Shown here in pieces: positions 14,565-59,620 of a stretch of 64,000 nt of DNA. Both the position numbers and the translations under genes were made by a program. Every line of letters begins with the position of its first letter. Position 1 is the first letter of the stretch. The stretch is from Dictyostelium discoideum (lineage: Eukaryota). A model generated the notes under the pieces. It made no database searches, was not told where the DNA came from, and saw only the letters and a program-made list of their open reading frames with translations. The stretch lies in the NCBI GenBank assembly GCA_000004695.1, contig CM000151.3, forward strand, positions 2,912,001-2,976,000. Direction: 5' to 3'.

Positions 14565-15414
14565 TTAAATACGAATTTTTTCATTATTTAATTCTTGTTG
14601 AGTAGCATCAATACTATTGCTATTATTATTATTAACAGGGTTACTTGAATTATTGTTATTATTATTATTATTTGTATTATTATTATTATTATTAATTGTA
14701 TTTTTATTTTCATTTATTGTAGATGATGAACGATTTTCTTCAATATATTTACAGATTTGAGTATTTATTACTTCATATAATAACTTTGGGTTAATTGGTT
14801 TTGTTACATAATCATCAACACCAGATTCTAAAAACTTTTCTTTATCACCTTTCATTGCATGAGCAGTTACAGCAATGATTGGAATATGACCACCTTCATT
14901 TGCTTCGATTTCACGAATTGCACAAGTTGCTTCTAAACCTGATAAAATTGGCATTTGAATATCCATTAATATACAATCATAAAGTATTGATTTATTTTTA
15001 CTTTCATGATAGAAATCTAAGGCTTGTTTACCATCTTTTGCAATGGTAATATCAAAACCTCTTTTAGTTAATAATGTCTTTATTAATTTTTGATTCATTG
15101 TATTATCTTCTGCTACCAATACTTTTTGTGGAATCATTTGACTACCACTAATTTCAATTCCACCGCTGCTTGTACCATTACTACTTAATAAATTAATATT
15201 ACCACTATTTCCTGATAAAATTGGTGGTGATTGGAATTGTGGTGTAGTAATTGTTGATGATGGTTGTGGTGGTGTTGTTACTCCTACTATTGTAGTTAAA
15301 CTACAATTATTATTATTATTGCTTCTTGGTGAACTAATTGGTGGTGATGTTTCAGGTGTTGAATTTGATGATTTTGATGGATCAGATGTATGATTATTAC
15401 TTGTATTTGTAGTG

Positions 15415-15503
<89 letters not shown>

Positions 15504-18455
15504 TAAAATTAAATTATTTGAATGAACAGTAGTATTATTATGTTGTTGAGATTGTTGTTGATGAATATGATGATGATGAATATGATGAAGATTTGTACTA
15601 CTTAAATTGGATTTATGTGGTGACATTCTTCCACTCAATTGTTCTAATTGTTGTTGTTGTTGTTGCTGTTGTTGTTGCTGTTTTGGTGAATATTGTTTTG
15701 GTGAATATTGTTGTTTTGGTGAATATTGTTTTGGAGAGTATTGCTGTTTTGGTGAATAACCACGTTGTGATTGTTTTGGTGATGAAGCAGATTGTAAACT
15801 TAATAATGGAACTATAACTATTTTTTTACCATTTGGAGTAACTGGATTATTATTTATAATTGTTATACTATTACCATTATTAATAATATTTGAACTGCTT
15901 TGAGTTACATTTGTTGAGGTTGAATTTGAAGAATTTGGTGTTAAACTATTAATATTATTTAAATCAGAGATATCAATTGAGTTATCTTTTAATGGTAAAA
16001 TTGGTGATAAAATTGGTTGTGTTTGTTGTTGTTGATTATTATTATTAACATTATTTGATGATATTGAAACTGGTGATGGTGTATTTGAAGATGTTAATGG
16101 AGTTGAGGATAATGAAGATGATGAAGGAGTTGAATTATTTGCACTACTATTACCACTATTGCTACCATTTGTACTGCTACCACCCCCACTACTACTACTA
16201 CTGTTGATAGGTGGTGAACTATAACCAACACCACCTCTAGGGGTACTAATTAAATTTGAATAATTTTTACCACCGTGACTTAAACTACGACCAGGTGATT
16301 TTGGTGGTGAATAAGCTGGTAAATTATTTAAACCACATTCTTTGGAAATTGGACCACGTGGTGTACAAATTGAATGAATTCTTTGAATTAAATCCATTGG
16401 ACAACTATGTTGTTTTTTAACATTTTTAGTTGAAGGTGTTGAAATTAAACTTGAACCACGACTATTATTTAAACCATTTGGAGTTTGAATATTATTATTA
16501 CTATTATTTAAACTTATACCACTATTATTATTTCCATTGGTATTATTATTTCCATTAGTATTACCAATTATATTATTAAGATTATTTGGATTATTTGATA
16601 AATTACTAAGATTATTTAAACCACTAATATTTAAATTTGAAATACCATTAAAACCAGTTGGACTTGAACTAAGAGTATTATGACTTGAAGATTTTAATGA
16701 TGTATTATTTAAAGAGGCAATGAAATTATAATAACTATTTGATGGTGTACGACTTGTTAATGGACCATTATCATTTGAATTATTATTATTATTAATACTA
16801 TTATTATTATTTAATGTACTACCATTGATATTTATATTATTCATACTATTACTTAAAGAAATACCATAATTTGTTGAATCGTTATTACCATTATCATTTG
16901 AATCTTTTTTCACTTTTTTAGTTTGAACATTTGGAAGTGATGGAATATAAATTTCATTTTTTAATCTACTAGATTCAAATAATTTAGTGGTTGAATTGAT
17001 TGAACCATTACTTGATTGTAATGAAGGTGATTTTGGTGATGGTGCTTCAACACTTTTAATTGAGAGAATGAAATGAAAAGTTGAACCTTGTGATGCTTCA
17101 CTTTCAAACCAAATTGCACCACCAAAGAATTCAATTAACTTTTTGCAAATACTTAAACCTAAACCAACACCACCTTGAACACGACTATATGAACCATCAA
17201 CTTGAAAGAATCTATCGAAAATGAAATCATGTTTATCCTCTGGTACACCAATACCACGATCTTTAATTGAAAATTTTAGATTAACAAACCCTTCACGATC
17301 TTTTTTTTTAAATTTTTCACGTTTATTAATACCACCTCCACCACCACCACTGGTATTATTATGAAATAATAAATTATTACTTATATTATTTCTTGAAGTG
17401 TTTGATGATGTATCGTCGTCGGTATCATCATCATTTTCATCAGTTTCATCATTTTCATCATCATTTTCATCATCATCATCACTATTATCTTTTTCATCTA
17501 ATTCACTAAAACCACCAACAGCTGATTCATTATCTGAAACATTAATATCTCTACCAAAATAAGAATCATTATTATCTTGATCATCATAATCACCATCGAT
17601 ACTATAATCATCATGTGAATTTAATCTACTATGAGTCTTTGAATTTGATCTAAAAGAGTCTTTATATTTTTTAAATTGATTATGAGTTAATTGTTCAACA
17701 ATGATTGAAATTGAATTATTTATATTTGAAGAATTTGAAAATTTTATTGCATTATCAATTAGATTTGAAAGGATTTGTTTTAAACGATTTTGATCACCAT
17801 AGAAATCATCGGCAATATTTGGATCGATTGAAAAGGTTAAACTAATCTTCTTTTCAATGATACGTGTATAGAAAACTTTAAATAATTGATTGAATGTATC
17901 ACGTAACTTGAATGGGAAAGGTCTAACTGCCAATGAATTTGATTCCAATGTTGTGAAATCTAAAATTTGGTGAAGTAAATCCAATAGAATCTTTGACGAC
18001 TCCACAACATCATTTAACATTTCCTTTAGATTCCTTGGTGCAACATCTAAACATAAACCAACCATACCAATGATTGAATTCATTGGACTCAATAATTCAT
18101 GACTAATATTTGCCAAAAATTCACCTTTTAATTGATTAGCCCTTTGTGCCTCCTCTGTTGCATTCTTTAGTATAACTTCATTACGTTTTCTTTCAGTAAT
18201 ATCATGTAAGGCTACAAATGCACCAATGGTTTTACCATCTTTTGAAACAATCTCTTGACCACTTGCCAAAACTAAAAATTCATTATCATTTATCTTTGTT
18301 GGAATTTTAGTTGCAATTGGTATTTGTTGTGGTGATGTTATTGTTGCTGCTGCTGCTGTTGTTGATGTTGTTGCACCACCTATTCCATTTGTTGTATTTT
18401 GTTGTTGTTGTGTTTGTTGTGTTGATACTTGTGTTTGTTGTTGTTGTGAAATTGA

Positions 18456-18519
<64 letters not shown>

Positions 18520-19880
18520 GTTGTTGTTGTTGTTGTACTATAATTTTTTGATAATCTATTTTGTGATTTATTACCATTTGAACAATTTGATTGTGATCTT
18601 GGTCTATTTGATTTTGATAATGATGATTGTTGTTGATTTGAAGTTGGAGTAATTATAATTTCTTGATCATTTATAAATTCACCACTTAATGCTCTAATAA
18701 TTGGTGTACCTGATTTTTCTAAATTTATTTGTTCATATGGTGATCTATAACATTTTAAAATTTGATCTAATAATTGTTTTCTATCGGTTTTATCGTTCAA
18801 TTCTAATCCATGTAAATCTTGTGCACTCTTATTGAAATGTGTTAAATCACCATTTGAATTACATGCAACAATGCCTGCTTTTAAACAACCAATTAATGCT
18901 TCAACAAATTTACTCTCTTCTTCTAATTTATCTTTTGCTTCTTGAATTTCACTAAAATCATGACAAACTCCTAAAACTTTAAAAACTTTATCATCTTTTT
19001 TAATAATTTCACCTCTTTTTTTTTTCATTGAAAAAAAAAAAAAAAAATAAAAAAAAAAGTTTGGAAATTAATAAATAATTAATAAAAATGATAATTATAA
19101 TAATAATAATAATACAAACTTTAATTGAATATATCTAACTAAATTATCATTTTTTCTATTAATTCTTAATGGATATTCAAATGAAGAACTATTTGATTCT
19201 ATACAATTATTAATTATTGGTTGAATTTCTTGAATACCAAGTTTATTAATAAAATCATTAAAATTCAATTTTTTATTAAAATCATTTTCAATACCAATTA
19301 TTTTATAAAATTGATTAGATGCTTTAGTTGTATCATTTTGAACATTCCATTCCCAAGATCCCATGTTTGATGGTTCTGGTCTATTATATTGTCCTTTATT
19401 ACTACTATTAATATTTACAGAATTTTGATTATTTTGATTATTATTTATATTATGATTTTCAATTGATGATGATAATGGTGATTGAATAAATTTAATTTCT
19501 TCAATTGCTTCTACTAATATAAAAATTCGTTTACCTTCGTAATCTAAATAATGACTATCTTGATTTACTAATAAATTAATACTAGTATCCAAATATAATT
19601 GTCTTGCATCCATATCACTAATATGTATTGATGAATATTTAAATATCATTTGTTTTAAAATCTCTCCATTTTCGTTGGATTCTATTATATCGATGTGTTC
19701 ATGTTTTGATTTACCATTTCTAATATCATTTATTAAATTTGAATTATTAAATAATGATGTTATTGATTCAATATTTTTATATTTTTTACATGATTGATTA
19801 CCCCAAATCAATACTCTTTTATTTATATCGAATAACCAAATTGCTTGATTTAATTTTTCTAATATTTTTAAATAAATCAT
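14565..19880 (-). CDS. Hybrid sensor histidine kinase (dhk family): PAS/PAC regions, HisKA, HATPase_c and a C-terminal receiver domain. Two exons: 19120-19880 and 14565-19014; about 1736 aa.
   Basis: H-box FLANISHELLSPMNSIIGMVGL. ATPase N/G boxes LSNLIDNAIKFS...DRGIGVPEDKHDFIFDRFFQVDGSYSRVQGGVGLGLSICKKL. Receiver KVLVAEDNTMNQKLIKTLL...ILMDIQMPILSGLEATCAIRE...PIIAVTAHAMKGDKEKFLESGVDDYVTKPI. The intron is TTA AA|GTTTGT...AG|A GGT in phase 2. The ATG at 19878-19880 opens a PAS-like exon (MIYLKILEKLNQAIWLFDINKRVLIWGN...). Long poly-Asn/Gln/Ser linkers are present. Confidence 0.85.
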
Positions 19881-20454
19881 TTTTCTTTAAAAAAAATATT
19901 TTTTTATTTTTTTATTTTTATTTTTATCTTTTTATCTTTATATATCTTTAAAAATCTTTTATTTTTTTTTTTTTTGTTTTTTTTTTTTGTTTTTTTTTTT
20001 TTTTTTTTTTTATATTATTACAAAAATAAATAAATAAATAAATAAAATTACAAGAAAAAAATAAAAAAAAAAAATAAAAACTATAGTTTTTAAACTATTT
20101 TTTTTTTCTTTTTTTTTTTTTTTAGATTAATGACTTTGAACGATTAAGGAAAAATAAAAAAATAAAAAATTAATAACAAAAAAAAATTATTTAATCATTA
20201 ATGGTTTCTATTATTTTTATTATTAATATTACTATTACTATTACTATTGTTTTTTTAAATATTATTAGGTTATTTATTTTTTGTGTAAATATTAGAATGA
20301 ATTTTAAAAGGATGTAATAGTTGACGATAAATCAAAAACAAAATTACAATGCAATTAATTATTTTTTTTTTTTTTTTATTTTTATTTTTTTTAAAAAAAA
20401 TTTATATATATTTTTTTTTACAAAGGTAGGTGTACAATACCGTTATAAAAAAAA

Positions 20455-20545
20455 GTGTTAATGTTGGTTTTAATGTGTGGTGTGGGTAATTTAAATTATT
20501 TGTGTTTAAAATAATTTGTGTAGAGAATGTGTGAGTTATTGTAAT
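20455..20545. promoter_or_regulatory. GT-rich (G-box-like) module 590-665 bp upstream of the histidine kinase ATG. A near-identical module lies at 54535-54600, upstream of carA.
   Basis: 20471-20545 reads TAATGTGTGGTGTGGGTAATTTAAATTATTTGTGTTTAAAATAATTTGTGTAGAGAATGTGTGAG. 54536-54600 reads GATGTGTGGTTTGTAGTGGTAAATTATTTGTGTGTTTAAATATTATTGTGTGAGTGGTGTGGGTG. Both lie in otherwise poly-A/T intergenic DNA. Confidence 0.45.
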
Positions 20546-20572
20546 AGTTATTTTATTATTTTTATAATGTGA

Positions 20573-20603
<31 letters not shown>

Positions 20604-21550
20604 GGTTTTTTTTGATTTTTTTTTTTTTTTTTGATTGATACTGTGGGTGGTGTTTATTATTAATAATTTATGATTAATGTAAATTATTTAATAAAAACAG
20701 TATACATATATTAAAAATATTTGTGAGGACACTTTTTTTAGAAAAAAAAAAATTATTACATTAAAAAAAAAATAAAAAATAATAAAAAAAAAAAAAATAG
20801 AAAAAAAAAAAAAAAATAGAAAAATAAAAAAAAAACAAAATAACTTTTTAGATTTAAAATGTGTACTCATTATTTTAAAAGAAATTTTGATGATATGTTT
20901 GCCAATTTACTAATTTTTTAATAATCATCCAGTGCACTGGATTACAAAATTGTTTTTTTTTTAAATTTTAATATATTTTTTTTTTTTTTTATAAATATCT
21001 TAATTTGGCGAGATTAAATATTTTTTTTTTTTTTTTATTTCTAATTTTTTTTTTTTTTTTGATCATAACTAGATTTTTTCCTTTTTTTTTTTTTTTTTTT
21101 TTTTTTTATTAAAAAAAAAAGATTAAAGTTTATGAGAAACAAACAAGTTAAAATTAAATCACATTCCTCAAAAAAGATTCTTTGTATAGTTTTTGGTGAT
21201 TTGCCTCATTGTCCTTTTAATGTGAAAGTAAAATAAAAAAAAAACTATTAAAAAATACAAGCATAATTGTAAATTATTAACCTTTATTAGGGAATTAATA
21301 AATCTAAATAATTTGATTTAAAAAAACTGATAATTGTATCTTCGTAAAAAAGCTTTAAATTAAATTTTTAATTTTCCAAGATAATACAAAAAATAATAAT
21401 AATTTTGGAAAAAAGAAAAAAAAAAAATAAATAAATAAATAAATAAATTTAATAAATTAAATTAAATAAATAATTAGATAAAAATAGAAAGAATTCTTAA
21501 TTATTATTTATTTAAAAAATAAAATATTGAAATTATTTTTTTTTTTTTTT

Positions 21551-21903
21551 TTAAGAATTAATATTATTATTAGTATTATTATTATTAATATTAATATTAT
21601 TATTACTATTATTGAAATTAAAAAGTTTAATTTTTAAGTTGAACAACCACCCTTTATCGTATGGGTTTATTTGGTTTTCGAAAATCTTTTTAAAATCCTC
21701 GATTGTTGATTTATTTGAAAGAGTTAATCTTATATGATATGATACTAAAAATCCTAACAACAGTGACATTATAAAACCAAAAATAATTATAAAAATACTA
21801 AAAATAAAAATTATTAGTAATCAGGAAAATTAAGAAAAAGTTAATTGATTTATCTTTTTTTTTTTTTTAAAAAAAAAAAAAAATCAATAATTAAAAAAAA
21901 AAA

Positions 21904-37066: not shown

Positions 37067-37211
37067 ATAATTGTTATTGTTATATTATTTAAAACCACAC
37101 AAACACACAGCACACAAACCACACTTTTTTAATCATATAAATTTTATAATTATAATTATTTATATTAAAATGGAAAAAAAAAAAAAAAAAAAAAAAAGTG
37201 AATGGAAGAAG

Positions 37212-37242
<31 letters not shown>

Positions 37243-37517
37243 GAATAAATTTATAAAATATATGAAATATATAAAAAATAAATAAATTTTATAATTTAAT
37301 TATTTATACTCTGTAAAGGTAGTTACTATTTGAAATTTATAGCCGACTGTTTTATAATTCCTTTTCAGGTTTATTTTTTAGTATTTATAATTGTTTAAAT
37401 TTGATTTTTTATTTTTTATTTTTTATTTTTTTGGTTTTTTTTTTTTTTGGTTTTTGATTTAATTAAAAATTATTTAAAAAAGATGGTATAAATACTACTA
37501 AATAATGATAGTTAAAC

Positions 37518-37738
37518 AACACACACACACTCTCTCTCTCTCTCATTCACACTCATTCACACAAAGACACCACTGATATTATTTTTTATAAAAAAAAAAG
37601 AAAATAAAAATATGATAATTGTGATAGTGAGTTAAGATGGCGAATATAAATTAAGTGTGAGTGTGTTTGAGAGAGACAGACAGAGAGTGTGTGTGTGTAG
37701 TGTGTTTGAGAGAGAGTGTGTGTATGTGGTTAAATTTA
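37518..37738. promoter_or_regulatory. Inverted complementary simple-sequence pair: a (CA)n(CT)n tract at 37518-37574 and a (GT)n(GA)n tract at 37655-37738, giving a potential long hairpin or paired CA-rich and G-box elements.
   Basis: First arm: cacacacacactctctctctctctcattcacactcattcacacaaagacacc. Second arm: gtgtgagtgtgtttgagagagacagacagagagtgtgtgtgtgtagtgtgtttgagagagagtgtgtgtatgtgg. Confidence 0.4.
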
Positions 37739-41838: not shown

Positions 41839-42865
41839 TTAAAATAATCTTTTAACTATAGTACTCAAATAAATAAAAAAATAAATAAAAAGTCATAAAA
41901 GAATAAAATTAAGGTTTGGAGAAAAAAAAAAAAAAAAAAAAAAATTTATTTATTTTTTTATTTATTTATTTTACAACCAATTATAACCACCATTAGATTT
42001 AAAAATTTTTTAATAAAAATTATAATATTTATTAACTTTTTGATTTATTTGAAATCAATGATTATTAATATAAATATAGCACCATTAACCACTTATCCCA
42101 CAATAAAATAAAATATAAAAACTAAACCATGTAATCTTTATTTCCATCTCTATCAATTGCGATAGATAAATCTGATTGAGTTTTTTTTTTTTTTTTTTTT
42201 TGTTTTTTTTTTCCTTTTTTCATTTTCTTTTTTTTATTAAAAAGGTGAAGACGGTAATACCAATAAAAGCAATTGTAAGTTTTTTGTAAATAAGATAAAT
42301 TATATATAATTAACAATTATTTAATATTTTTTTAAAGATACAAAATGGTGCATGTATTACCATTTTTATTTAATTTATTTTATTTTTTTTTTATTTTATT
42401 TTATTTTTTATGAACCTAGTGCGTGTGTGTATGTGTGTGGTTATTAATTTGATATAACCCACCCAGAATATCTAAATAAGCCAGTTGTTTTACCTTTTCT
42501 TTTTTTAATTTCCTTTTTATTTTTTTTAAATTTTTCATTTTTCATTTTCGAAATGACTTTCCCACATTATCTTATTTTTTTTTCCATTATTTTTTTTATT
42601 TGCAAATAAAATTTTTTTTTTTTTTTTTTTTTTTTTAATTTTTTTTATTTTTTTTTTATTTTTTTGGTATTTTTTTTTTTGTATAAAATTCACCTCTTTC
42701 ATATTCTCTCCTCTGCAATATAAATTTTTTGTTTAACAAATTTTTTTTTTTTTTAATGTTTTTTTAAATATTAATTATAATTTTAATTTAAAATAGAAAA
42801 TAAAAAATTAAAAAAAAAAAAAAAAAAAAAAAACGCACATTTTACTTTTGCACAAATTAAAAAGG

Positions 42866-52373: not shown

Positions 52374-53274
52374 TCAATTATTTCCTTGACCATTTGTTGA
52401 AGTGGAAATTTGAATATTTTGCATTTCAACAGTCTGTTTTTCTTCATCAGATGATGATAAAGAAGATGAAGATGAACCTTCATCATTATAATTTTGTTGT
52501 AAACCATAATTATTATTTAGATTTTGTTGATTATTTACCATATTTGGATGTCTTTCCAAAGAACATTGCTCCATATCGGAACTACATTGCACATCATCAC
52601 CAGTTGGATGACCACCCATAGTTTTACCAGAAGTACCACGACTTGAACTATATGGTGATGGATTGTTATTGTTTTTATTCTTTTCCAATTTCTTTTGTAC
52701 ATCAGTAAAGTAACCAAAGAATGTGAAAACTGTTAAAATCTTTGCACCAAAATAACGCCACATTAATGGATTATTATAGATAAATGTGACAGATGCCCAA
52801 AAACCATGGGATACACTCAAATAGGTGTGGAGAATATTGAGTGCTGGTGGAAACATATTTAAACCATTTACAATACGATTAACAACTGCAAATACCCAAC
52901 AAACAAGGAAAACTATGATATAGTTGATCAATTTGAATTGGTATGTTAAATGTTTCTCTTTATTATCACTAACACCATTATGAATAACAACATAGGTATA
53001 ACGTGATGTTAAACCAACCAATACTGCTGAAATTGCCCAAATAAATAAGAATGGACCATAGAATAACCCAAATCTATATCCAGTGAAACTTACACCAATC
53101 CAACACCAATTACCAACAAATTGTACTGTATTTTTTGCCAACATAACAATTGTTGAAATTAATGGTAAACCCCAACATAATAAATAATAATATTTTTCAA
53201 ATCTTTCTGGTTCTGGTTCTCTTTTTACAATTAACATATAAATACTAATTGCTAAAAAAAAAAATTTTTAAGAG

Positions 53275-53307
<33 letters not shown>

Positions 53308-53343
53308 AGCACATTTTCAAATAATCTGATCAAATCTTTTTTT

Positions 53344-53383
<40 letters not shown>

Positions 53384-53695
53384 TTTAAACTTACCAAGAC
53401 ATAAAGTCCACAACCAACATGCAAAACTACCATATGTAATTACAATTGCATATAAATAACAAGGGAAACCACCATTGACAGCTGTATTTGTTAAAGTTAA
53501 AATTGTTGAAGGAAAATCTTTACAAAAGGAGGTAGCACAAAAACATGCAATTACTTTTGTAACATGATTACGCAAAAGTTTTAATCTCCAAAAACCAATC
53601 AACACTGCCATACAACCCAACATTGAAGAAAAATCGGCAAATAATAATAAAACCAATGATGTTTCATTGGCTGGATTTCCATCTAAAAGACCCAT
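52374..53695 (-). CDS. carA: cAMP receptor cAR1 (7-TM GPCR of the cAR/Crl family). Two exons: 53395-53695 and 52374-53251, giving exactly 392 aa.
   Basis: The N-terminus [61 protein letters not shown] and the remaining TM helices match my memory of D. discoideum cAR1. A single phase-1 intron (CTT G|GTAAGT...TTTTAG|CA) joins ...WTLCLA|[17 protein letters not shown]. The Ser-rich C-terminal tail [11 protein letters not shown] is the known phosphorylation cluster. Confidence 0.8.
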
Positions 53696-54158
53696 TTTAT
53701 TTTTTTATTTATATATATATATGTGTGAAAAATCTAGATAGTTTATGTATGTGATTGTATTTTAAATAATTTTTTTTTTTTTTTTTTTATTGTATTAATA
53801 CAAATTATTTTTTTAAATTTAGCGTTCTATAATTATTTGAAAATAAAAGAAAAGAGAGGAAAAAAAAAAATAATAATAAAAAATATGTGTAAAAAAAAAA
53901 ATAAGAAAAAAAAAAAAATAATATAATATAAAATAAAGAAAATAAAAATAAAAAAAAAAAAATAGATTAATATTTTGTAAATTGTGATTGAAAAAAAAAT
54001 TTTATTTTATTTTTTTCAATTTTTTTTTATTTTAATTGATTAATCACCTTTCAATCTCGATTGATTGAAAAAAAAATAAAAAAAAATTGGATAATCTACA
54101 AAAGTTTTTATTTTTTTTTGAAAGTTTGAGACCAAAGTTTTTTATAATAAACAATATA

Positions 54159-54194
<36 letters not shown>

Positions 54195-55655
54195 TAATAA
54201 TTTGGTTGTTTAGAATTTTATATAATGTGGAGTGTAGTGGTGGTGAACGAAGATGAAAGAAGGGGTGATTTTTTATTTATATTGTAAATAAATTTTTTTA
54301 TTCGATATAAAATGGTTTTAATTAATTTAAATTAATATCAAACAATAAAAAAAAAAAAAAAAAATTATGTAATATAAAAAAATAAAAAAAAAAAAAAAAA
54401 ATTAAAATTAAAAAAAAATTAAAAAAATAATTAATTAAAAAATATTTAATAAAATAATTTAAAAACCATAGTATCACAATTATTATTGAATCAAATAAAT
54501 TGAATCTTGGTAGTTAAAAAAAAAAGCCCACTTTTGATGTGTGGTTTGTAGTGGTAAATTATTTGTGTGTTTAAATATTATTGTGTGAGTGGTGTGGGTG
54601 AAAAAAAAAAAAATCCACATTCAAAAAAAAAAAACTTCAAGTGTGTTATTATTATTTTTATTATTATTATTATTATTAATTTAAATCAATTATAATTGAT
54701 ATTTATAGAACCACCCTAAGAAAAAAAAAATTTTATAATCTTTTTTTTTCTTTTTTTTTTCTATAATTTTTAGGGGTATATATATGAACAGGATGTTTTA
54801 TATCTGAGATATGGATATAACCGACAATAAACAAATAATAAATTTTTTTGAAAACAATTTAACAACATAAAAAACAACATACAAAAAAAAAAAAAACCTC
54901 CTTTGAATTGTTATTATTATTATTATTATTATTTATTTTTTTTTATTTTTTATTTTTTTATTGATTATTAAATACAAAAGAATACAAAAGAATCAAAGAA
55001 AAAAATTATTAAAGTGCAACATTTATGATGACGGTTTATAATTATTTGTTATCTCGAATTTTTGATTCTATTTATTAATAATATTAATTACCTTAAATTT
55101 ATTCGATTTATCGTTTTGATTTGATATTAGAGAGAGAGAGAGAGATAAAGTTTTAATTATATTATTATAAAAAGGATTAATTTTTATATTATTTTTTTTA
55201 TAATAAATTTAAATTTTAATTTTAATTTTATTAATTTAGCCTATTGGAAATAATTTGAACCTTTTTATTTTAAATTAAACTTTAATGATAATAATTATTA
55301 AAAAAAAAAAAAAAAAAATTATTTATTTAAAAAAAAAAAAAATAAAAAAAAAAAAAATAAAAAAAAATGATTAAAAAAAAAAGTATTTTTAAAAAAATTT
55401 ATTTTTAAATGTGAATCAAGCTCGAATCTCCATCATAAAATAAAAGGTTAGTAAAAAAAATGAAAATAAAAAAACATATTATATCATTTTGATTGCTGGG
55501 CAAATTAATCATTAGTTCTAAGATTTTTTTTTTTTTTTTTTTTTTTTTAATTTTTAAAAAAAAAAAAAAAAATGTTGTAAGAGCATTACCGTTTCACAAA
55601 ATGAAAAGACACAAAATTGAAATTAAAAATATACAGTGAAATGATTTAGTGAGTA

Positions 55656-55690
<35 letters not shown>

Positions 55691-56487
55691 GTTTAAATTA
55701 TTATAATTTTGTGTGTTTTTAAATAAATAAATTATATTTTTTTTTTTTTTTTAAGTGTCGAATTATTTTCTATTAATATCATCGATAGTGTTGAATGTGG
55801 GTTTATGATCACCCCTCAAACTTTGAAAAAAAAGACTTTTTTTATTTTTTTATTTTTTTTATTTTTTTTTTTATTTTTTTTGAATTTTGATCATTTGTGT
55901 TGATTGATTAATTTTTTTTTTTTTAACTTTTTGATTAAAAAAAAAAATCTTTACTACTCGCTTGATGGTTCCCAGCATCTTTTCATTTTTTACACTCCTA
56001 TAGGTCAAAAAGTCTATAAAAAAAAAATAAAAAAAAAAAAATAAAAAAAAATAAAAAAAAAAAAAAAAAAAAAAAAAAATTAAAAAGAAAAAATAAAATA
56101 AAATAAATAAACAAAGAGTTTTTTTCTAAAGCAAAACATACATTCATTTATTAATTAATAAATAAACTAATTATAATTATTATTATTATTTTAATTTTTT
56201 TTACTTTTAATTTTTTTTTTTTTTTTTATAAAATTTAATTTTTAAAGATTTTAACAAAATACAAAATTTTTGAATAAAACAGTGTAGTGATCTAAAAAAA
56301 GGGGCTTTTTGTTGAATTGATTAATCTATCCTTTTAAATCAGTTACAGTAGTTTGGAAATAATTAAAAATAATATTTTTTTATTTTTGACTATAGATTAA
56401 AAAAAAGGATCACAATTTCCAGATTTTTTTAAATTGTAAAAAACATGTGATTTTGATATAGTATTGAATGTCACATCTATTTTTACA

Positions 56488-56526
<39 letters not shown>

Positions 56527-56958
56527 TTTTGGGGTTTTCAGAAGTTGTTTATTAAAAAAAGAATAGAAATTAAAAAAAAAAATAATAATAAAATAAAAAT
56601 AAAAATTTAAAACATTAAATTAATAATAAATTATTAATTCTATAGAATTTTAAATTAAACAAACCACACCAAAGGCTTATTTTTTTTTTTTTTTTATTAA
56701 AAAATTTAAAAAAAAAAAAAAAAAAAGTGAAGGATAAAATTTTTTTTAAAAAATATTATTTTTATATTATTATTATTTATATTTATATTTAAAAGTATCT
56801 TCATAATAAAACTTTTTTTTTTTTTCACACAAAAAATTAATTTCTACCATTTTTTTAGTGGGGCAAAAAAGTTGATTAAAAGATATTTCATTCAGGGTAA
56901 TAGTTTAGAAAATATCAAAATAACCTCGAATCATAGGCACCCGAATTCCGGGCTTGGA

Positions 56959-56959
<1 letters not shown>

Positions 56960-56989
<30 letters not shown>

Positions 56990-57115
56990 TATCAAATAAT
57001 TTTAAAAAAAAGAAAAAAAGAAAAAATCCAATCAAATAATTTTAAAAAAAAAAAAATCCAATCAAATAATTTTTTAAAAAAAAAAAAAAAAAAAAATCTA
57101 ATCAAATAATTATTT
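56960..57115. repeat. Four tandem copies of an ~22-bp unit AAAAATCCAATCAAATAATTTT, each separated by A runs (period about 30-40 bp).
   Basis: atcctatcaaataatttt / atccaatcaaataatttt / atccaatcaaataatttt / atctaatcaaataatta at 56985, 57026, 57056 and 57096. Confidence 0.8.
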
Positions 57116-57376
57116 TTCAAAATAGAAAATTAATTATTTTTTTTATTATTTATTACATAAAAACCATTTAATACAATTAATATATTATTTTTTGTTTCAA
57201 TTTTTTTTTTTTATTTTTTTTTTATTTTTTTTTTTTATTTATTTATTATTTATTTATTTGTTTATTTATTTGTTTATTTATTTATTTACTTATTAATATA
57301 AATATTTTTGGTAAATTAGTATGATAGATGGTGATTATAAAGTATTTAATTGGTGTAGTGTATGTAATCAATTGAT

Positions 57377-59620
57377 TTATTCTTGATTCTTTGGAAGTGG
57401 AACAATTAAATTATTCCAAGTTTGAATGTTGCTTCTATATTCATTTTCAATGGTAACCAATCTACTTAAAATATCGGTACAAGTTGGTCTATTTTCGAGA
57501 TTTGGATCCCAGCAATCTTGAATCAATGAAACCAATGACTCTGGACATGCATTTGGTATTGTTGGTCTAAGGTTTTTCTTTGCTGTTTGAATAATAATTT
57601 GGAAATCATGTTGTAAATTCTAAAATAATAAAAATAAAAAGAGTTAGAAATATATTTTTTTAAAAAAAAAAAAATTAAATTTTTAAAAATACAAACCTTA
57701 TATTCTGAAAAAGGTCTTTCATATCTACCATTTATACATCTTGTGACCAATTCCCATAGGATAACAGCGATTGAGTAAACATCAGATTTACCAGAGAATT
57801 GTTCACCATAATAAACTTCTGGAGCACAATAAGCAAAGGTACCTCTCATTTTTACCAATGTTTCTAAATTTGATCCTGTATTGAAACGACTTAAACCAAA
57901 ATCACAAACCTTTATTTCCCATTTATCATTTACCAATAAATTTAAACTCTTTAAATCTCTATGAACGATTGGTGGATCCCATTTATGTAAACATTCAATA
58001 CCTCTAACTGTTTCAATTGCAAATCTAAATGTTCTTTCCCATCCAATATCCAATGAATTATTATCCATAACATGATATAAACTACCTCTTGAACAATTTT
58101 CCATTACCATACATAATTTTGGTTCCAATACTGCACCATAAAAATGTACAACATGTTTCGATCTTATGGCACTATAAAAATTAAAAAAAAAAAAAAAATA
58201 ATAAAATTTTAGTTAATATACATATATATTTCTTTTTTTCATTTTCATTTTCATTTTTTTTTTTTTTTTTTTTTTCAAAAAATAATAATAATAAATATAA
58301 AATTAAATGCTTACCTCATAATTTGGAATTCTTTTTTAAATTCTTCAATTTCTTTTGATTCAGTCATTGATTTTAATACTTTAATTGCAACTTCTTTACC
58401 TCTATATAAACCTTTATAAACTTTACCAGAACTACCAGCACCCAATTTCTCAGTATACTCCAACTCATTATCATTAATAATATTTACTTCACCAACATGT
58501 CTTAGTGTATGTAATGAATGTCTAAGTCCACTAATATCTGGTGTATCTGGTGGTGTTGGATCTTCTTCTATTATAAGTTCTGGTGTTTTTGGTTTTTTTG
58601 TTTGTTCATCTAATAATAATTAATGATAAAAATAATAATAATAATTAATAATAATAATAATATTAGTAAATAAATAAATATTTTAAAAAATAAATAAATA
58701 AATAAATAATACATACTTGCTAAATTTGAAGTTTCTTTTAAAATTCTTAATCTTGTACCAGTAGAAGTAATACCCATTTTATTTAAAATATCTTCACTCA
58801 TTTCACCCAATTCATCTAAAAACATTTCTTCCTTTAAAAAAGCATCTTTGTATTGTTCGAAACCATGTTTTTGTAACCAATCAAAGAGATCTTTATACTT
58901 TTTGATACGAGCAGTCATATCCTTGTTACCCTCTTCAACGGCCAATTGATAAGGAGTTTTTCTCTCTTTTGTACCAACACAATCAACATCAGCACCAGCC
59001 TTCAAAAGTACAGACACTAAATCCTCACGACCTAAACGTACGGCATAGTGAAGTGGTGATTCTTGAAATTGAGTTGCCAAATTAACGTTGGCACCATTTT
59101 TCAATAAGAGACCAACCATCATAAGACGTACTGAATTGTTAAAGATTGCCTTGTGTAACGGTGTTTCACCATTCTTATTTTGAGCATTCACATTGACACC
59201 CTTTTGAATGAATAGTTGAAATGGTTCTTGACAATTTGGTGATCTAAATTTCTGGCAAAAGTAGTGAATTGGTGTGTTTAAATCATCGTTTTGTACATCT
59301 ACATTAATGTTTTCATATTGTAATACCCTCATCAATATCCTATCATCACTACTCACTGCTTGATGTAATGCTGAAAATCCATTCTTGTCAAAGGTATTTA
59401 TATCTGCCTTTAATGTTACACATAAACTCAACAAGAGTTCCACCATCTCTTCATTATTATTCTTTAATGCTATAGTTAATGCTGATTGTCCATATTGATC
59501 AAATGATGTTAAATTACTTTTACTAATCTTTTTTTTACTTGATAATTTCTTAACTTTTGTAACATCATTTTGTTCAACTGCACTAAATAATTGATGTTGT
59601 TGTTGTTGAGTTGATGACAT
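57377..59620 (-). CDS. Ankyrin-repeat / SAM-domain / protein kinase (TKL-like). Four exons: 58720-59620, 58316-58608, 57700-58175 (approximate), 57377-57610 (approximate).
   Basis: ANK repeats (GQSALTIALKNNNEEMVELLL..., GFSALHQAVSSDD..., GETPLHKAIFNNSVRLMMVGLLLKNGANVN, ESPLHYAVRLGREDLVSVLLKAGADVD). SAM-like YKDLFDWLQKHGFEQYKDAFLKEEMFLDELGEMSEDILNKMGITSTGTRLRIL. Kinase subdomains LGAGSSGKVYKG...VAIKVLK, HRDLKSLNLLV, DFGLSRF, APEV, DVYSIAVILWEL. Donors GTATGT, GTAAGC, GTTTGT. Confidence 0.8.

What the first reader, a model, noticed from the sequence alone, without database searches (positions are those of the whole stretch)
20455..20545. Conserved ~65-bp GT-rich module upstream of two signalling genes (histidine kinase and carA)
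Two intergenic segments 34 kb apart share a near-identical architecture: ATGTGTGGT(G/T)TG..GGTAA(A/T)TT..ATTATTTGTGT(G)TTTAAA..ATT(A/T)TTGTGT..GTGAG, with GGTGTGGGTG at one end. Each sits 0.6-0.9 kb upstream of a minus-strand developmental signalling gene: the hybrid histidine kinase (ATG 19880) and cAR1 (ATG 53695). GT/G-box-like elements are the known targets of the G-box binding factor in post-aggregative promoters. A shared composite module suggests co-regulation or a dispersed regulatory cassette. Shorter GT-rich elements also occur at 20641-20660, 37655-37738 and 42425-42450.
Basis: partly seen in the sequence, partly recalled or inferred. Interest (0 to 1): 0.58.

Follow-up and report, generated by a model that had tools for sequence, protein, structure and literature searches.

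The report
Shared GT-rich upstream module, carA and dhkI
Two short GT-rich stretches upstream of the Dictyostelium cAMP receptor gene carA and the histidine kinase gene dhkI really do resemble each other more than chance predicts, and they look like ordinary clusters of transcription-factor binding sites of the known G-box type rather than a new kind of element.

Summary
Segment A (20471-20536) and segment B (54533-54600) share three sub-motifs in the same order, plus a GGTGTGGGT box. They are each other's best non-self match in the window on both strands (score 54; next best 35-36). Shuffled queries reach 54 anywhere in the window in only 1-2 of 1200 trials. Both have the same orientation and polarity relative to a minus-strand gene: dhkI (ATG 19880, 0.59-0.66 kb away) and carA (ATG 53695, 0.84-0.91 kb away).

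B lies in a non-coding block kept at the same position in D. citrinum, D. firmibasis and D. dimigraforme. Its core TTTGATGTGTGGTTTG is invariant there. A could only be checked in near-identical sibling strains. D. purpureum has no alignable copy of B.

Both segments contain clustered (T/G)G(T/G)G(T/G)G(T/G) half-sites, the published GBF response element. No RNA family, RNA structure, flanking homology or further copy was found in 85 kb of D. discoideum DNA.

The best reading is two upstream regulatory site clusters using the same factor grammar. The similarity is modest: about one equal match is expected by chance genome-wide. Factor identity, timing (late versus aggregation stage) and co-regulation are not shown, and genome-wide copy number could not be tested.

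The parts
20471..20536 (+). Module A. The GT-rich strand is +, so the CA-rich strand is sense for dhkI. It lies 591-656 bp upstream of the dhkI ATG.
20459..20487 (+). Tandem pair within A: a degenerate core TAATGTTGGTTT followed by TAATGTGTGGTGTGGGT. The second copy holds three overlapping GBF-type half-sites (20474-20487).
20493..20517 (.). Perfect 9-bp AT-rich inverted repeat AAATTATTT-N7-AAATAATTT around GTGTTTA, inside A. The counterpart in B is imperfect.
20420..20555 (.). Non-low-complexity block containing A. It is 95-100% identical in two D. cf. discoideum assemblies, while the flanking homopolymer runs drop to 62-75%.
54533..54600 (+). Module B. The GT-rich strand is +, so the CA-rich strand is sense for carA. 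It lies 838-905 bp upstream of the carA ATG.
54533..54548 (+). Core TTTGATGTGTGGTTTG. It is invariant in D. discoideum, D. cf. discoideum, D. citrinum, D. firmibasis and D. dimigraforme. With up to 3 mismatches it otherwise matches only A in the window; in the long fetched loci it matches only the orthologues of A and B, plus one 3-mismatch hit in L014.
54591..54600 (+). G-box GGTGTGGGTG at the gene-distal end of B. Every species keeps some G-rich box here, but its sequence varies.
54494..54623 (.). Conserved non-coding block around B. Its pieces are AATAAATTGAATCTTGGTAGTT, an A-run, GCCCAC, module B, an A-run and TCCACATTCA.
14565..19880 (-). dhkI coding region: two exons, with an intron at 19015-19119, encoding 1736 aa.
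52374..53695 (-). carA (cAR1) coding region: two exons encoding 392 aa, 100% identical to D. discoideum cAR1.
20641..20660 (+). Second, shorter G-box island upstream of dhkI (TGTGGGTGG).
54226..54267 (+). Second GT-rich block upstream of carA (CA-rich on the carA sense strand), at -531 to -572. It is conserved and sits directly upstream of a TATA-like box and a long T-run.

Best explanation
A and B are upstream cis-regulatory modules: compact clusters of binding sites for sequence-specific developmental transcription factors, set in AT-rich spacer. Each has three parts. The first is a core T(A/G)ATGTGTGGT(T/G)TG. The second is an AT-rich, partly palindromic spacer around GTGT(G)TTTAAA. The third is (A/T)TGTGTGAGT. 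Each also has a GGTGTGGGT box. Several of these pieces fit the two-half-site G-box / CA-rich element read by the zinc-finger factor GbfA (GBF).

The modules sit in the same orientation 0.6-0.9 kb upstream of two genes of the cAMP signalling system, carA and dhkI. The proposed mechanism is that the same factor set occupies both modules once cAMP-receptor signalling activates it. Both genes would then be raised in parallel.

Shown: the similarity, the shared orientation and polarity, the half-site matches and the evolutionary constraint on B.

Inferred: which factor binds, the developmental stage, and that the two genes are actually co-regulated.
For: - A and B are reciprocal best matches in the window. 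They score 54, against a shuffle mean of 23 for the pair and 36-37 for window-wide maxima.
- Both have the GT strand on + with the gene on -, and the ATGTGTGG end is gene-proximal in both.
- B is retained at -0.8 to -0.93 kb of carA in D. cf. discoideum, D. citrinum (two assemblies), D. firmibasis and D. dimigraforme. It is a conservation peak between poorly conserved homopolymer spacers, with an invariant 16-mer core.
- GBF-type half-sites are rare in the window (62 hits), and multi-site intergenic clusters occur at only a handful of places, A and B among them. The consensus is taken from PMC2257962. GbfA binds G-rich motifs of cAMP-induced prestalk and prespore genes (PMC6598861).
- TGTGTGGTK and GTGTGGTTT each occur 5 times, against 0.6 and 0.4 expected.
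- ACCACAC lies on the sense strand upstream of carA in all group-4 species examined (in D. purpureum only inside a distal (CA)n run at -1760). It also lies upstream of dhkI in Tieghemostelium lacteum.
- carA has a post-aggregative proximal promoter (PMC5055082).
- The two genes are functionally linked, since dhkI-null cells are defective in cAMP chemotaxis (PMC6397043).
- There is no RNA family hit or stable fold, so a DNA-level role is favoured.
Against: - The similarity is modest. At p of about 0.001-0.002 per 64-kb search, one equally good chance match is expected in a 34-Mb genome.
- B positions that match A are not enriched among B positions that are invariant across species (38 of 44 versus 33 of 43; Fisher p = 0.28).
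- The A-B score falls to 25-35 when the D. firmibasis or D. dimigraforme version of B is used. Part of the resemblance therefore lies in unconstrained spacer.
- The best G-box of B is its least conserved part.
- Conservation of A was tested only in near-identical sibling assemblies.
- D. purpureum has no alignable copy of B, only a CA-rich cluster at -632 to -690.
- No binding or expression data were available.
- dhkI is absent from the alphabetical list of 561 GtaC direct targets. It appears only in a later list of that file.
Confidence: 0.5

Rival explanations
1. Coincidence between two independent regulatory islands. Both are G-box-type clusters in AT-rich DNA. The collinear resemblance beyond the short GT motifs is chance and implies no common regulation.
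For: - Expected genome-wide chance matches at this score are about 1.
- There is no enrichment of conserved B positions among A-matching positions.
- The similarity drops with other species' versions of B.
- GT motifs such as GTGTGGTTT recur elsewhere in the window.
Against: - Within this window, shuffled queries reach the score in only 1-2 of 1200 trials.
- Other GT/CA island pairs score 39 or less.
- Three sub-motifs occur in the same order and in the same orientation relative to the gene.
- Even metagenome sequences that share both anchor words align no better than 43.
Confidence: 0.3
2. Common descent. A short promoter fragment was copied between the two linked loci (34 kb apart, same strand) by duplication or ectopic gene conversion, or both are relics of a dispersed repeat or mobile-element fragment.
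For: - The collinearity extends over about 95 bp, including a GTTA-A(8-10)-G stretch on the gene-proximal side.
- The two copies lie on the same strand of the same chromosome region.
- Similarity is highest in the D. discoideum / D. citrinum lineage, at positions that vary in other species.
Against: - There is no similarity in the flanks other than homopolymer runs.
- No terminal repeats or coding capacity were found.
- There is no third copy in the window, in the carD locus or in any fetched locus.
- Identity is only about 75-80%, with several indels.
Confidence: 0.12
3. Transcribed element. The modules are parts of 5' leaders or of small non-coding RNAs, and act at the RNA level.
For: - TATA-like boxes followed by T-runs lie near both modules. 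ATTTATATATA at 20400-20410 is on the gene-proximal side of A. A TATAAATA lies about 110 bp distal of B.
- carA is known to have a distal promoter whose start site I could not place.
Against: - No Rfam family reaches threshold anywhere in the window.
- Neither strand of B folds better than shuffles, and the sense strand of B has no structure at all. In A only a weak hairpin from the AT-rich inverted repeat (-2.4 kcal/mol, minus strand) exceeds shuffles.
- Available RNA-seq contigs of carA carry only 23-55 nt of leader, contiguous with the ATG.
Confidence: 0.05

Closest known systems
G-box / CA-rich element (CAE) bound by G-box binding factor GbfA in Dictyostelium post-aggregative promoters (cprB, cotC/SP60, lagC, sigN genes)
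   Same: Both are GT-rich on one strand and CA-rich on the other. Both have paired half-sites fitting (T/G)G(T/G)G(T/G)G(T/G), and both lie a few hundred bp upstream of developmentally regulated genes. From my own recollection of Powell-Coffman et al. 1994, whose title is cited in PMC6598861, the cotC minimal element also combines a GBF site with an AT-rich element. That resembles the GT/AT alternation seen here.
   Different: The most constrained piece, TTTGATGTGTGGTTTG, contains only one half-site, and the clearest G-box of B is evolutionarily labile. No evidence of GbfA binding or GBF-dependent expression was available for carA's late promoter or for dhkI.
Alternative promoters of cAMP-signalling genes (carA, acaA, pdsA): distal for aggregation, proximal for post-aggregation
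   Same: B lies in the 3.7-kb carA upstream region, which is known to hold two promoters (PMC5055082, PMC2952602). That region is a mosaic of about ten conserved blocks.
   Different: The published work I could read does not give coordinates or element sequences. Louis et al. 1993 is not held; I did not attempt to retrieve Mu et al. 1998. Whether B belongs to the proximal or the distal promoter, or has already been mapped, could not be established.
GtaC (GATA factor) target promoters of early development
   Same: carA-1 is one of 561 GtaC direct targets, and dhkI-1 is listed in the same supplementary file.
   Different: By eye I saw no GATA or GATC motif in either module (not formally scanned). 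dhkI-1 is not in the alphabetical direct-target list.

Membership tests
GBF-responsive G-box / CAE | Two or more closely spaced half-sites (T/G)G(T/G)G(T/G)G(T/G) | tested here: met
   A has 3 overlapping half-sites at 20474-20487. B has 4 between 54538 and 54599. Only a handful of such intergenic clusters exist in 64 kb. The consensus is from PMC2257962.
GBF-responsive G-box / CAE | Located in the 5' regulatory region of a developmentally regulated gene | tested here: met
   A is 591-656 bp upstream of the dhkI ATG and B is 838-905 bp upstream of the carA ATG. In each case the next upstream gene is on the same strand.
GBF-responsive G-box / CAE | Bound by GbfA in vitro or in vivo | not testable with these tools
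   No binding data were accessible. EMSA or ChIP is needed.
GBF-responsive G-box / CAE | Target gene induced after aggregation by sustained cAMP and dependent on gbfA | tested here: inconclusive
   carA has a post-aggregative proximal promoter (PMC5055082), but I found no statement on its GBF dependence. The dhkI expression profile was not found. Its knockout phenotype is at the aggregation stage.
Conserved non-coding regulatory element (phylogenetic footprint) | Retained at the syntenic position with higher identity than the flanking spacer across species | tested here: met
   This holds for B in five lineages. For A the test is weak, because only D. cf. discoideum assemblies could be fetched. 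D. purpureum has no alignable B.
Dispersed repeat / mobile-element fragment | Three or more copies scattered in the genome | tested here: inconclusive
   Only A and B occur in the 64-kb window plus the 21-kb carD locus. The whole D. discoideum genome is not searchable with these tools. A metagenome scan gave only chance hits.
Dispersed repeat / mobile-element fragment | Homology extending into the flanks, terminal repeats or coding capacity | tested here: not met
   The flanks share only homopolymer or AT low-complexity matches.
Structured non-coding RNA | Match to a known RNA family, or a fold more stable than shuffled controls on a plausible strand | tested here: not met
   Rfam gave 0 hits in the window. 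The fold z-scores are about 0, apart from the trivial AT-rich hairpin of A at -2.4 kcal/mol.

The most novel reading that the evidence does not exclude
The ordered, oriented module marks a small regulon of cAMP-chemotaxis genes in group-4 dictyostelids. Its signature is the core T(A/G)ATGTGTGGT(T/G)TG, then an AT palindrome around GTGT(G)TTTAAA, then TGTGTGAGT. It would be read by a factor or factor pair not yet assigned to this sequence, possibly together with GBF. Alternatively, it arose by copying a promoter fragment between the linked carA and dhkI loci when cAMP chemotaxis was recruited to aggregation.
Probability: 0.15. Interest if true: 0.5.

Novelty: new member of a known kind. Interest (0 to 1): 0.3.

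Why it matters
carA is a central gene of Dictyostelium development, and its two-promoter structure is used as an example of how cAMP chemotaxis was recruited to aggregation in group-4 species. A defined, conserved 16-nt core and about 65-bp module gives a concrete target for reporter mutagenesis in the carA upstream region. Its twin upstream of dhkI, a kinase recently tied to cAMP chemotaxis, gives a testable hypothesis of co-regulation. If the module is just one more G-box cluster, it adds a site to a known class and little else.

Tried and rejected
- **Whole-window repeat finding.** The tool's output was swamped by low-complexity families and was useless.
- **Homologue searches with DhkI.** Two searches with DhkI fragments returned nothing, not even self. 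The exact 1736-aa sequence is not in the collection either. Orthologous dhkI promoters from D. citrinum, D. firmibasis, D. dimigraforme and D. purpureum therefore could not be fetched.
- **Route via the neighbouring gene.** The neighbouring EF-P-like gene reached only D. cf. discoideum.
- **Representative-library search.** It gave a metatranscriptome contig without a promoter, and T. lacteum, which is too distant to align.
- **Metagenome scan.** The pattern ATGTGTGGTN{8,18}ATTATTTGTGT gave 28 hits. All were chance, with no extended similarity and none that looked dictyostelid (one had Dictyostelium-like GC).
- **RNA tests.** The Rfam scan and RNA folding were negative.
- **Flank comparison.** Comparing the flanks of A and B for a larger duplication found only homopolymer matches.
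- **carD (cAR4) locus.** There is no copy there.
- **blastn against D. purpureum.** The output was mostly low-complexity noise. It did reveal a different conserved proximal element.
- **Papers not held.** The primary promoter paper (Louis 1993, PMC46848), Alvarez-Curto 2005, Powell-Coffman 1994 and Schaap 2007 are not held. I could not check whether B was already mapped experimentally.
- **CRTF / early-promoter element.** My memory of its sequence is too vague to use, and literature searches for it found nothing.

Full report
**What the window is.**
The window is 21% G+C. The minus-strand gene with its ATG at 53695 encodes, after removal of one intron, a 392-aa protein. That protein is 100% identical to Dictyostelium discoideum cAMP receptor 1.

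The minus-strand gene with its ATG at 19880 has two exons (intron 19015-19119) and encodes a 1736-aa hybrid histidine kinase. Going by its length and my recollection of the dictyBase entry, this is DhkI (DDB_G0273475), the gene studied in PMC6397043. No direct sequence match to an annotated DhkI entry could be made.

The gene upstream of dhkI is a DHHC palmitoyltransferase on the same strand, with its stop near 21551. The gene upstream of carA is an ankyrin/SAM/kinase gene on the same strand. The dhkI upstream spacer is therefore about 1.7 kb and the carA spacer about 3.7 kb.

**Check of the observation.**
The two segments are present as described.

On the + strand, A reads:
- TAATGTGTGGTGTGGGT (20471-20487)
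- AAATTATTT-GTGTTTA-AAATAATTT (20493-20517)
- AATGTGTGAGT (20526-20536)

On the + strand, B reads:
- TTTGATGTGTGGTTTG (54533-54548)
- AAATTATTT-GTGTGTTTAAAT (54556-54576)
- ATTGTGTGAGT (54580-54590)
- GGTGTGGGTG (54591-54600)

Three sub-motifs are therefore shared in the same order. The GGTGTGGGT box is at opposite ends of the two modules. A also carries a degenerate tandem copy of the core, TAATGTTGGTTT, at 20459-20470.

With more permissive gap costs, the collinearity extends on the gene-proximal side through GTTA-A(8-10)-G. That gives about 95 bp in all.

**Is it more than chance?**
- The local alignment score is 54. In 5000 dinucleotide-preserving shuffles of A against B the mean was 23.2, sd 4.5 and maximum 49.
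- A and B are each other's best non-self match in the whole window on both strands. The next best scores are 36 and 35.
- The stricter control searches shuffled queries against the entire window and takes the maximum. Its mean was 36-37, and it reached 54 in 2 of 1200 trials for B and 1 of 1200 for A.
- Among 55 pairs formed from 11 GT/CA-rich islands of the window, A-B ties for first with a pair of simple (CA)n(CT)n repeats. All others score 39 or less.
- Even 28 metagenome sequences that contain both anchor words at the right spacing align no better than 43.

The resemblance is therefore real, but modest. Scaled to 34 Mb, about one equally good chance match is expected.

**Orientation and surroundings.**
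In both cases the GT-rich strand is + and the gene is on -. The ATGTGTGG end faces the gene in both.

The flanks share nothing except homopolymer and AT low-complexity matches, so there is no larger duplication. No Rfam family is hit anywhere in the window. Neither strand of B folds better than shuffles. In A only the small AT-rich hairpin formed by the 9-bp inverted repeat does, at -2.4 kcal/mol. A DNA-level role is the natural reading.

**Conservation of B.**
carA loci were fetched from:
- two further D. discoideum strains
- D. cf. discoideum
- D. citrinum (two assemblies)
- D. firmibasis
- D. dimigraforme
- D. purpureum

B is found at 0.80-0.93 kb upstream of the ATG in all of them except D. 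purpureum.

A profile of the whole 3.7-kb spacer shows about ten blocks of high identity separated by poorly conserved homopolymer spacer. B belongs to one such block, 54494-54623. Within that block the following are invariant or nearly so:
- AATAAATTGAATCTTGGTAGTT
- TTTGATGTGTGGTTTG
- GTGT(G/A)TTTAAAT
- TCCACATTCA

GTGTGAGT is kept in four of six sequences. The distal G-box is replaced by different G-rich strings in each lineage.

D. purpureum has no alignable copy. It has a CA-rich cluster on the same strand sense at -632 to -690.

**Conservation of A.**
DhkI and its relatives could not be retrieved from the protein index. Only two D. cf. discoideum assemblies were reachable, through the neighbouring EF-P-like gene.

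There A sits in a block (20420-20555) that is 95-100% identical, while the adjacent homopolymer tracts fall to 62-75%. Because these genomes are very close, this is a weak test.

A distant orthologue, Tieghemostelium lacteum, keeps the DHHC-dhkI synteny. It has a CA cluster containing ACCACAC on the sense strand at about -177, but nothing alignable.

**Relation to known motifs.**
The published GBF response element is (T/G)G(T/G)G(T/G)G(T/G), usually in pairs (PMC2257962). GbfA binds G-rich motifs of cAMP-induced prestalk and prespore genes (PMC6598861).

A contains three overlapping half-sites and B contains four. Comparable intergenic clusters occur at only a few other places in the window: 20642, 37095-37723 and 42424-42465.

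The 9-mers TGTGTGGTK and GTGTGGTTT occur 5 times each, against 0.6 and 0.4 expected. The 16-mer core with up to 3 mismatches matches only A and B in the window. In the long fetched loci it matches only the orthologues of A and B, plus one 3-mismatch hit in L014. The 21-kb carD locus of D. discoideum has G-box half-sites upstream of carD but no copy of the module.

**Arguments against over-reading.**
- B positions that match A are not significantly enriched among B positions invariant across species (38 of 44 versus 33 of 43; p = 0.28).
- The score of A against the D. firmibasis or D. dimigraforme version of B is only 25-35. Part of the similarity therefore sits in unconstrained AT spacer.
- The clearest G-box in B is its least conserved part.

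**Stage of action.**
The literature states that the promoter proximal to the ATG drives post-aggregative expression, and a more distal one drives expression during aggregation (PMC5055082; PMC2952602). I could not obtain coordinates for either.

By sequence alone, a TATA-like box (54216-54225 on +) and a 27-nt T-run on the sense strand suggest a start near -470. A conserved GT-rich block (CA-rich on the carA sense strand), 54226-54267, lies just upstream of it. B lies 270 bp further up. This is inference only. RNA-seq contigs carry only 23-55 nt of leader, contiguous with the ATG.

Functional links point at least as much to aggregation. dhkI-null cells have reduced persistence in cAMP gradients and delayed aggregation (PMC6397043). 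carA-1 is among the 561 GtaC direct targets. dhkI-1 appears only in a later list of the same supplementary file, which by the file description holds GtaC-bound genes.

**Verdict.**
The most likely explanation is a pair of upstream transcription-factor site clusters of the known G-box/CAE kind that share a specific core and sub-motif order. This suggests, but does not demonstrate, common regulation of two cAMP-signalling genes.

Chance resemblance between two independent G-box islands remains a serious rival. Common descent of a copied promoter fragment is possible, but nothing beyond the collinearity supports it. Nothing here is of a new kind. The useful product is a precisely delimited, conserved core and module for experimental testing.

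Noticed in passing
window 54038-54068: GATTAATCACCTTTCAATCTCGATTGATTGA contains the palindrome CAATCTCGATTG and lies about 345-370 bp upstream of the carA ATG. It is the best-conserved proximal block. It is recognisable in D. purpureum at the same distance (CATCGAGAT-AAAAGGTGATTA), unlike module B.
   Followed up: partly
window 53696-57450: The 3.7-kb carA upstream spacer is a mosaic of about ten blocks that are 85-100% identical across four group-4 species. Examples are 54255-54315, 55005-55035, 55425-55515, 55785-55815, 55965-55995 and 56325. They are separated by fast-evolving homopolymer runs. These blocks are candidates for the early and late promoter elements.
   Followed up: partly
window 54168-54267: This stretch looks like a core promoter for carA on the sense strand. 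A CA-rich block comes first, then TATATAAAA, then a 27-nt T-run, predicting a start near -470. D. purpureum aligns collinearly here.
   Followed up: no
window 37092-37124 and 37519-37725: The 4.5-kb spacer between divergent genes holds two copies of GTGTGGTTT on the minus strand. It also holds an inverted pair of compound simple repeats, (CA)n(CT)n at 37519-37560 facing (GA)n(GT)n at 37655-37725.
   Followed up: no
window 4864, 37092, 37116, 54539, 56661: The 9-mer GTGTGGTTT occurs five times, against 0.43 expected from shuffles. Two of the five lie in the carA upstream spacer.
   Followed up: partly
window 20400-20410: ATTTATATATA on + reads TATATATAAAT on the dhkI sense strand and is followed by a T9 run. 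It lies about 60 bp on the gene-proximal side of module A and is a possible dhkI core promoter.
   Followed up: no
window 53710-53722 versus L003-L005: The (TA)n run in the carA 5' leader is one unit shorter in RNA-seq-derived contigs than in the window. This is a small length polymorphism between strains.
   Followed up: no
L018 3969-10200: The DHHC-palmitoyltransferase to dhkI gene order and orientation is conserved in Tieghemostelium lacteum (group 3). In D. purpureum the neighbourhood downstream of carA is rearranged relative to D. discoideum (L007).
   Followed up: no
L048 3409-7330 and 17874-20257: The carD (cAR4) locus of D. discoideum is flanked by retroelement ORFs. One has reverse transcriptase plus a tyrosine recombinase, as in DIRS-type elements.
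   Followed up: no
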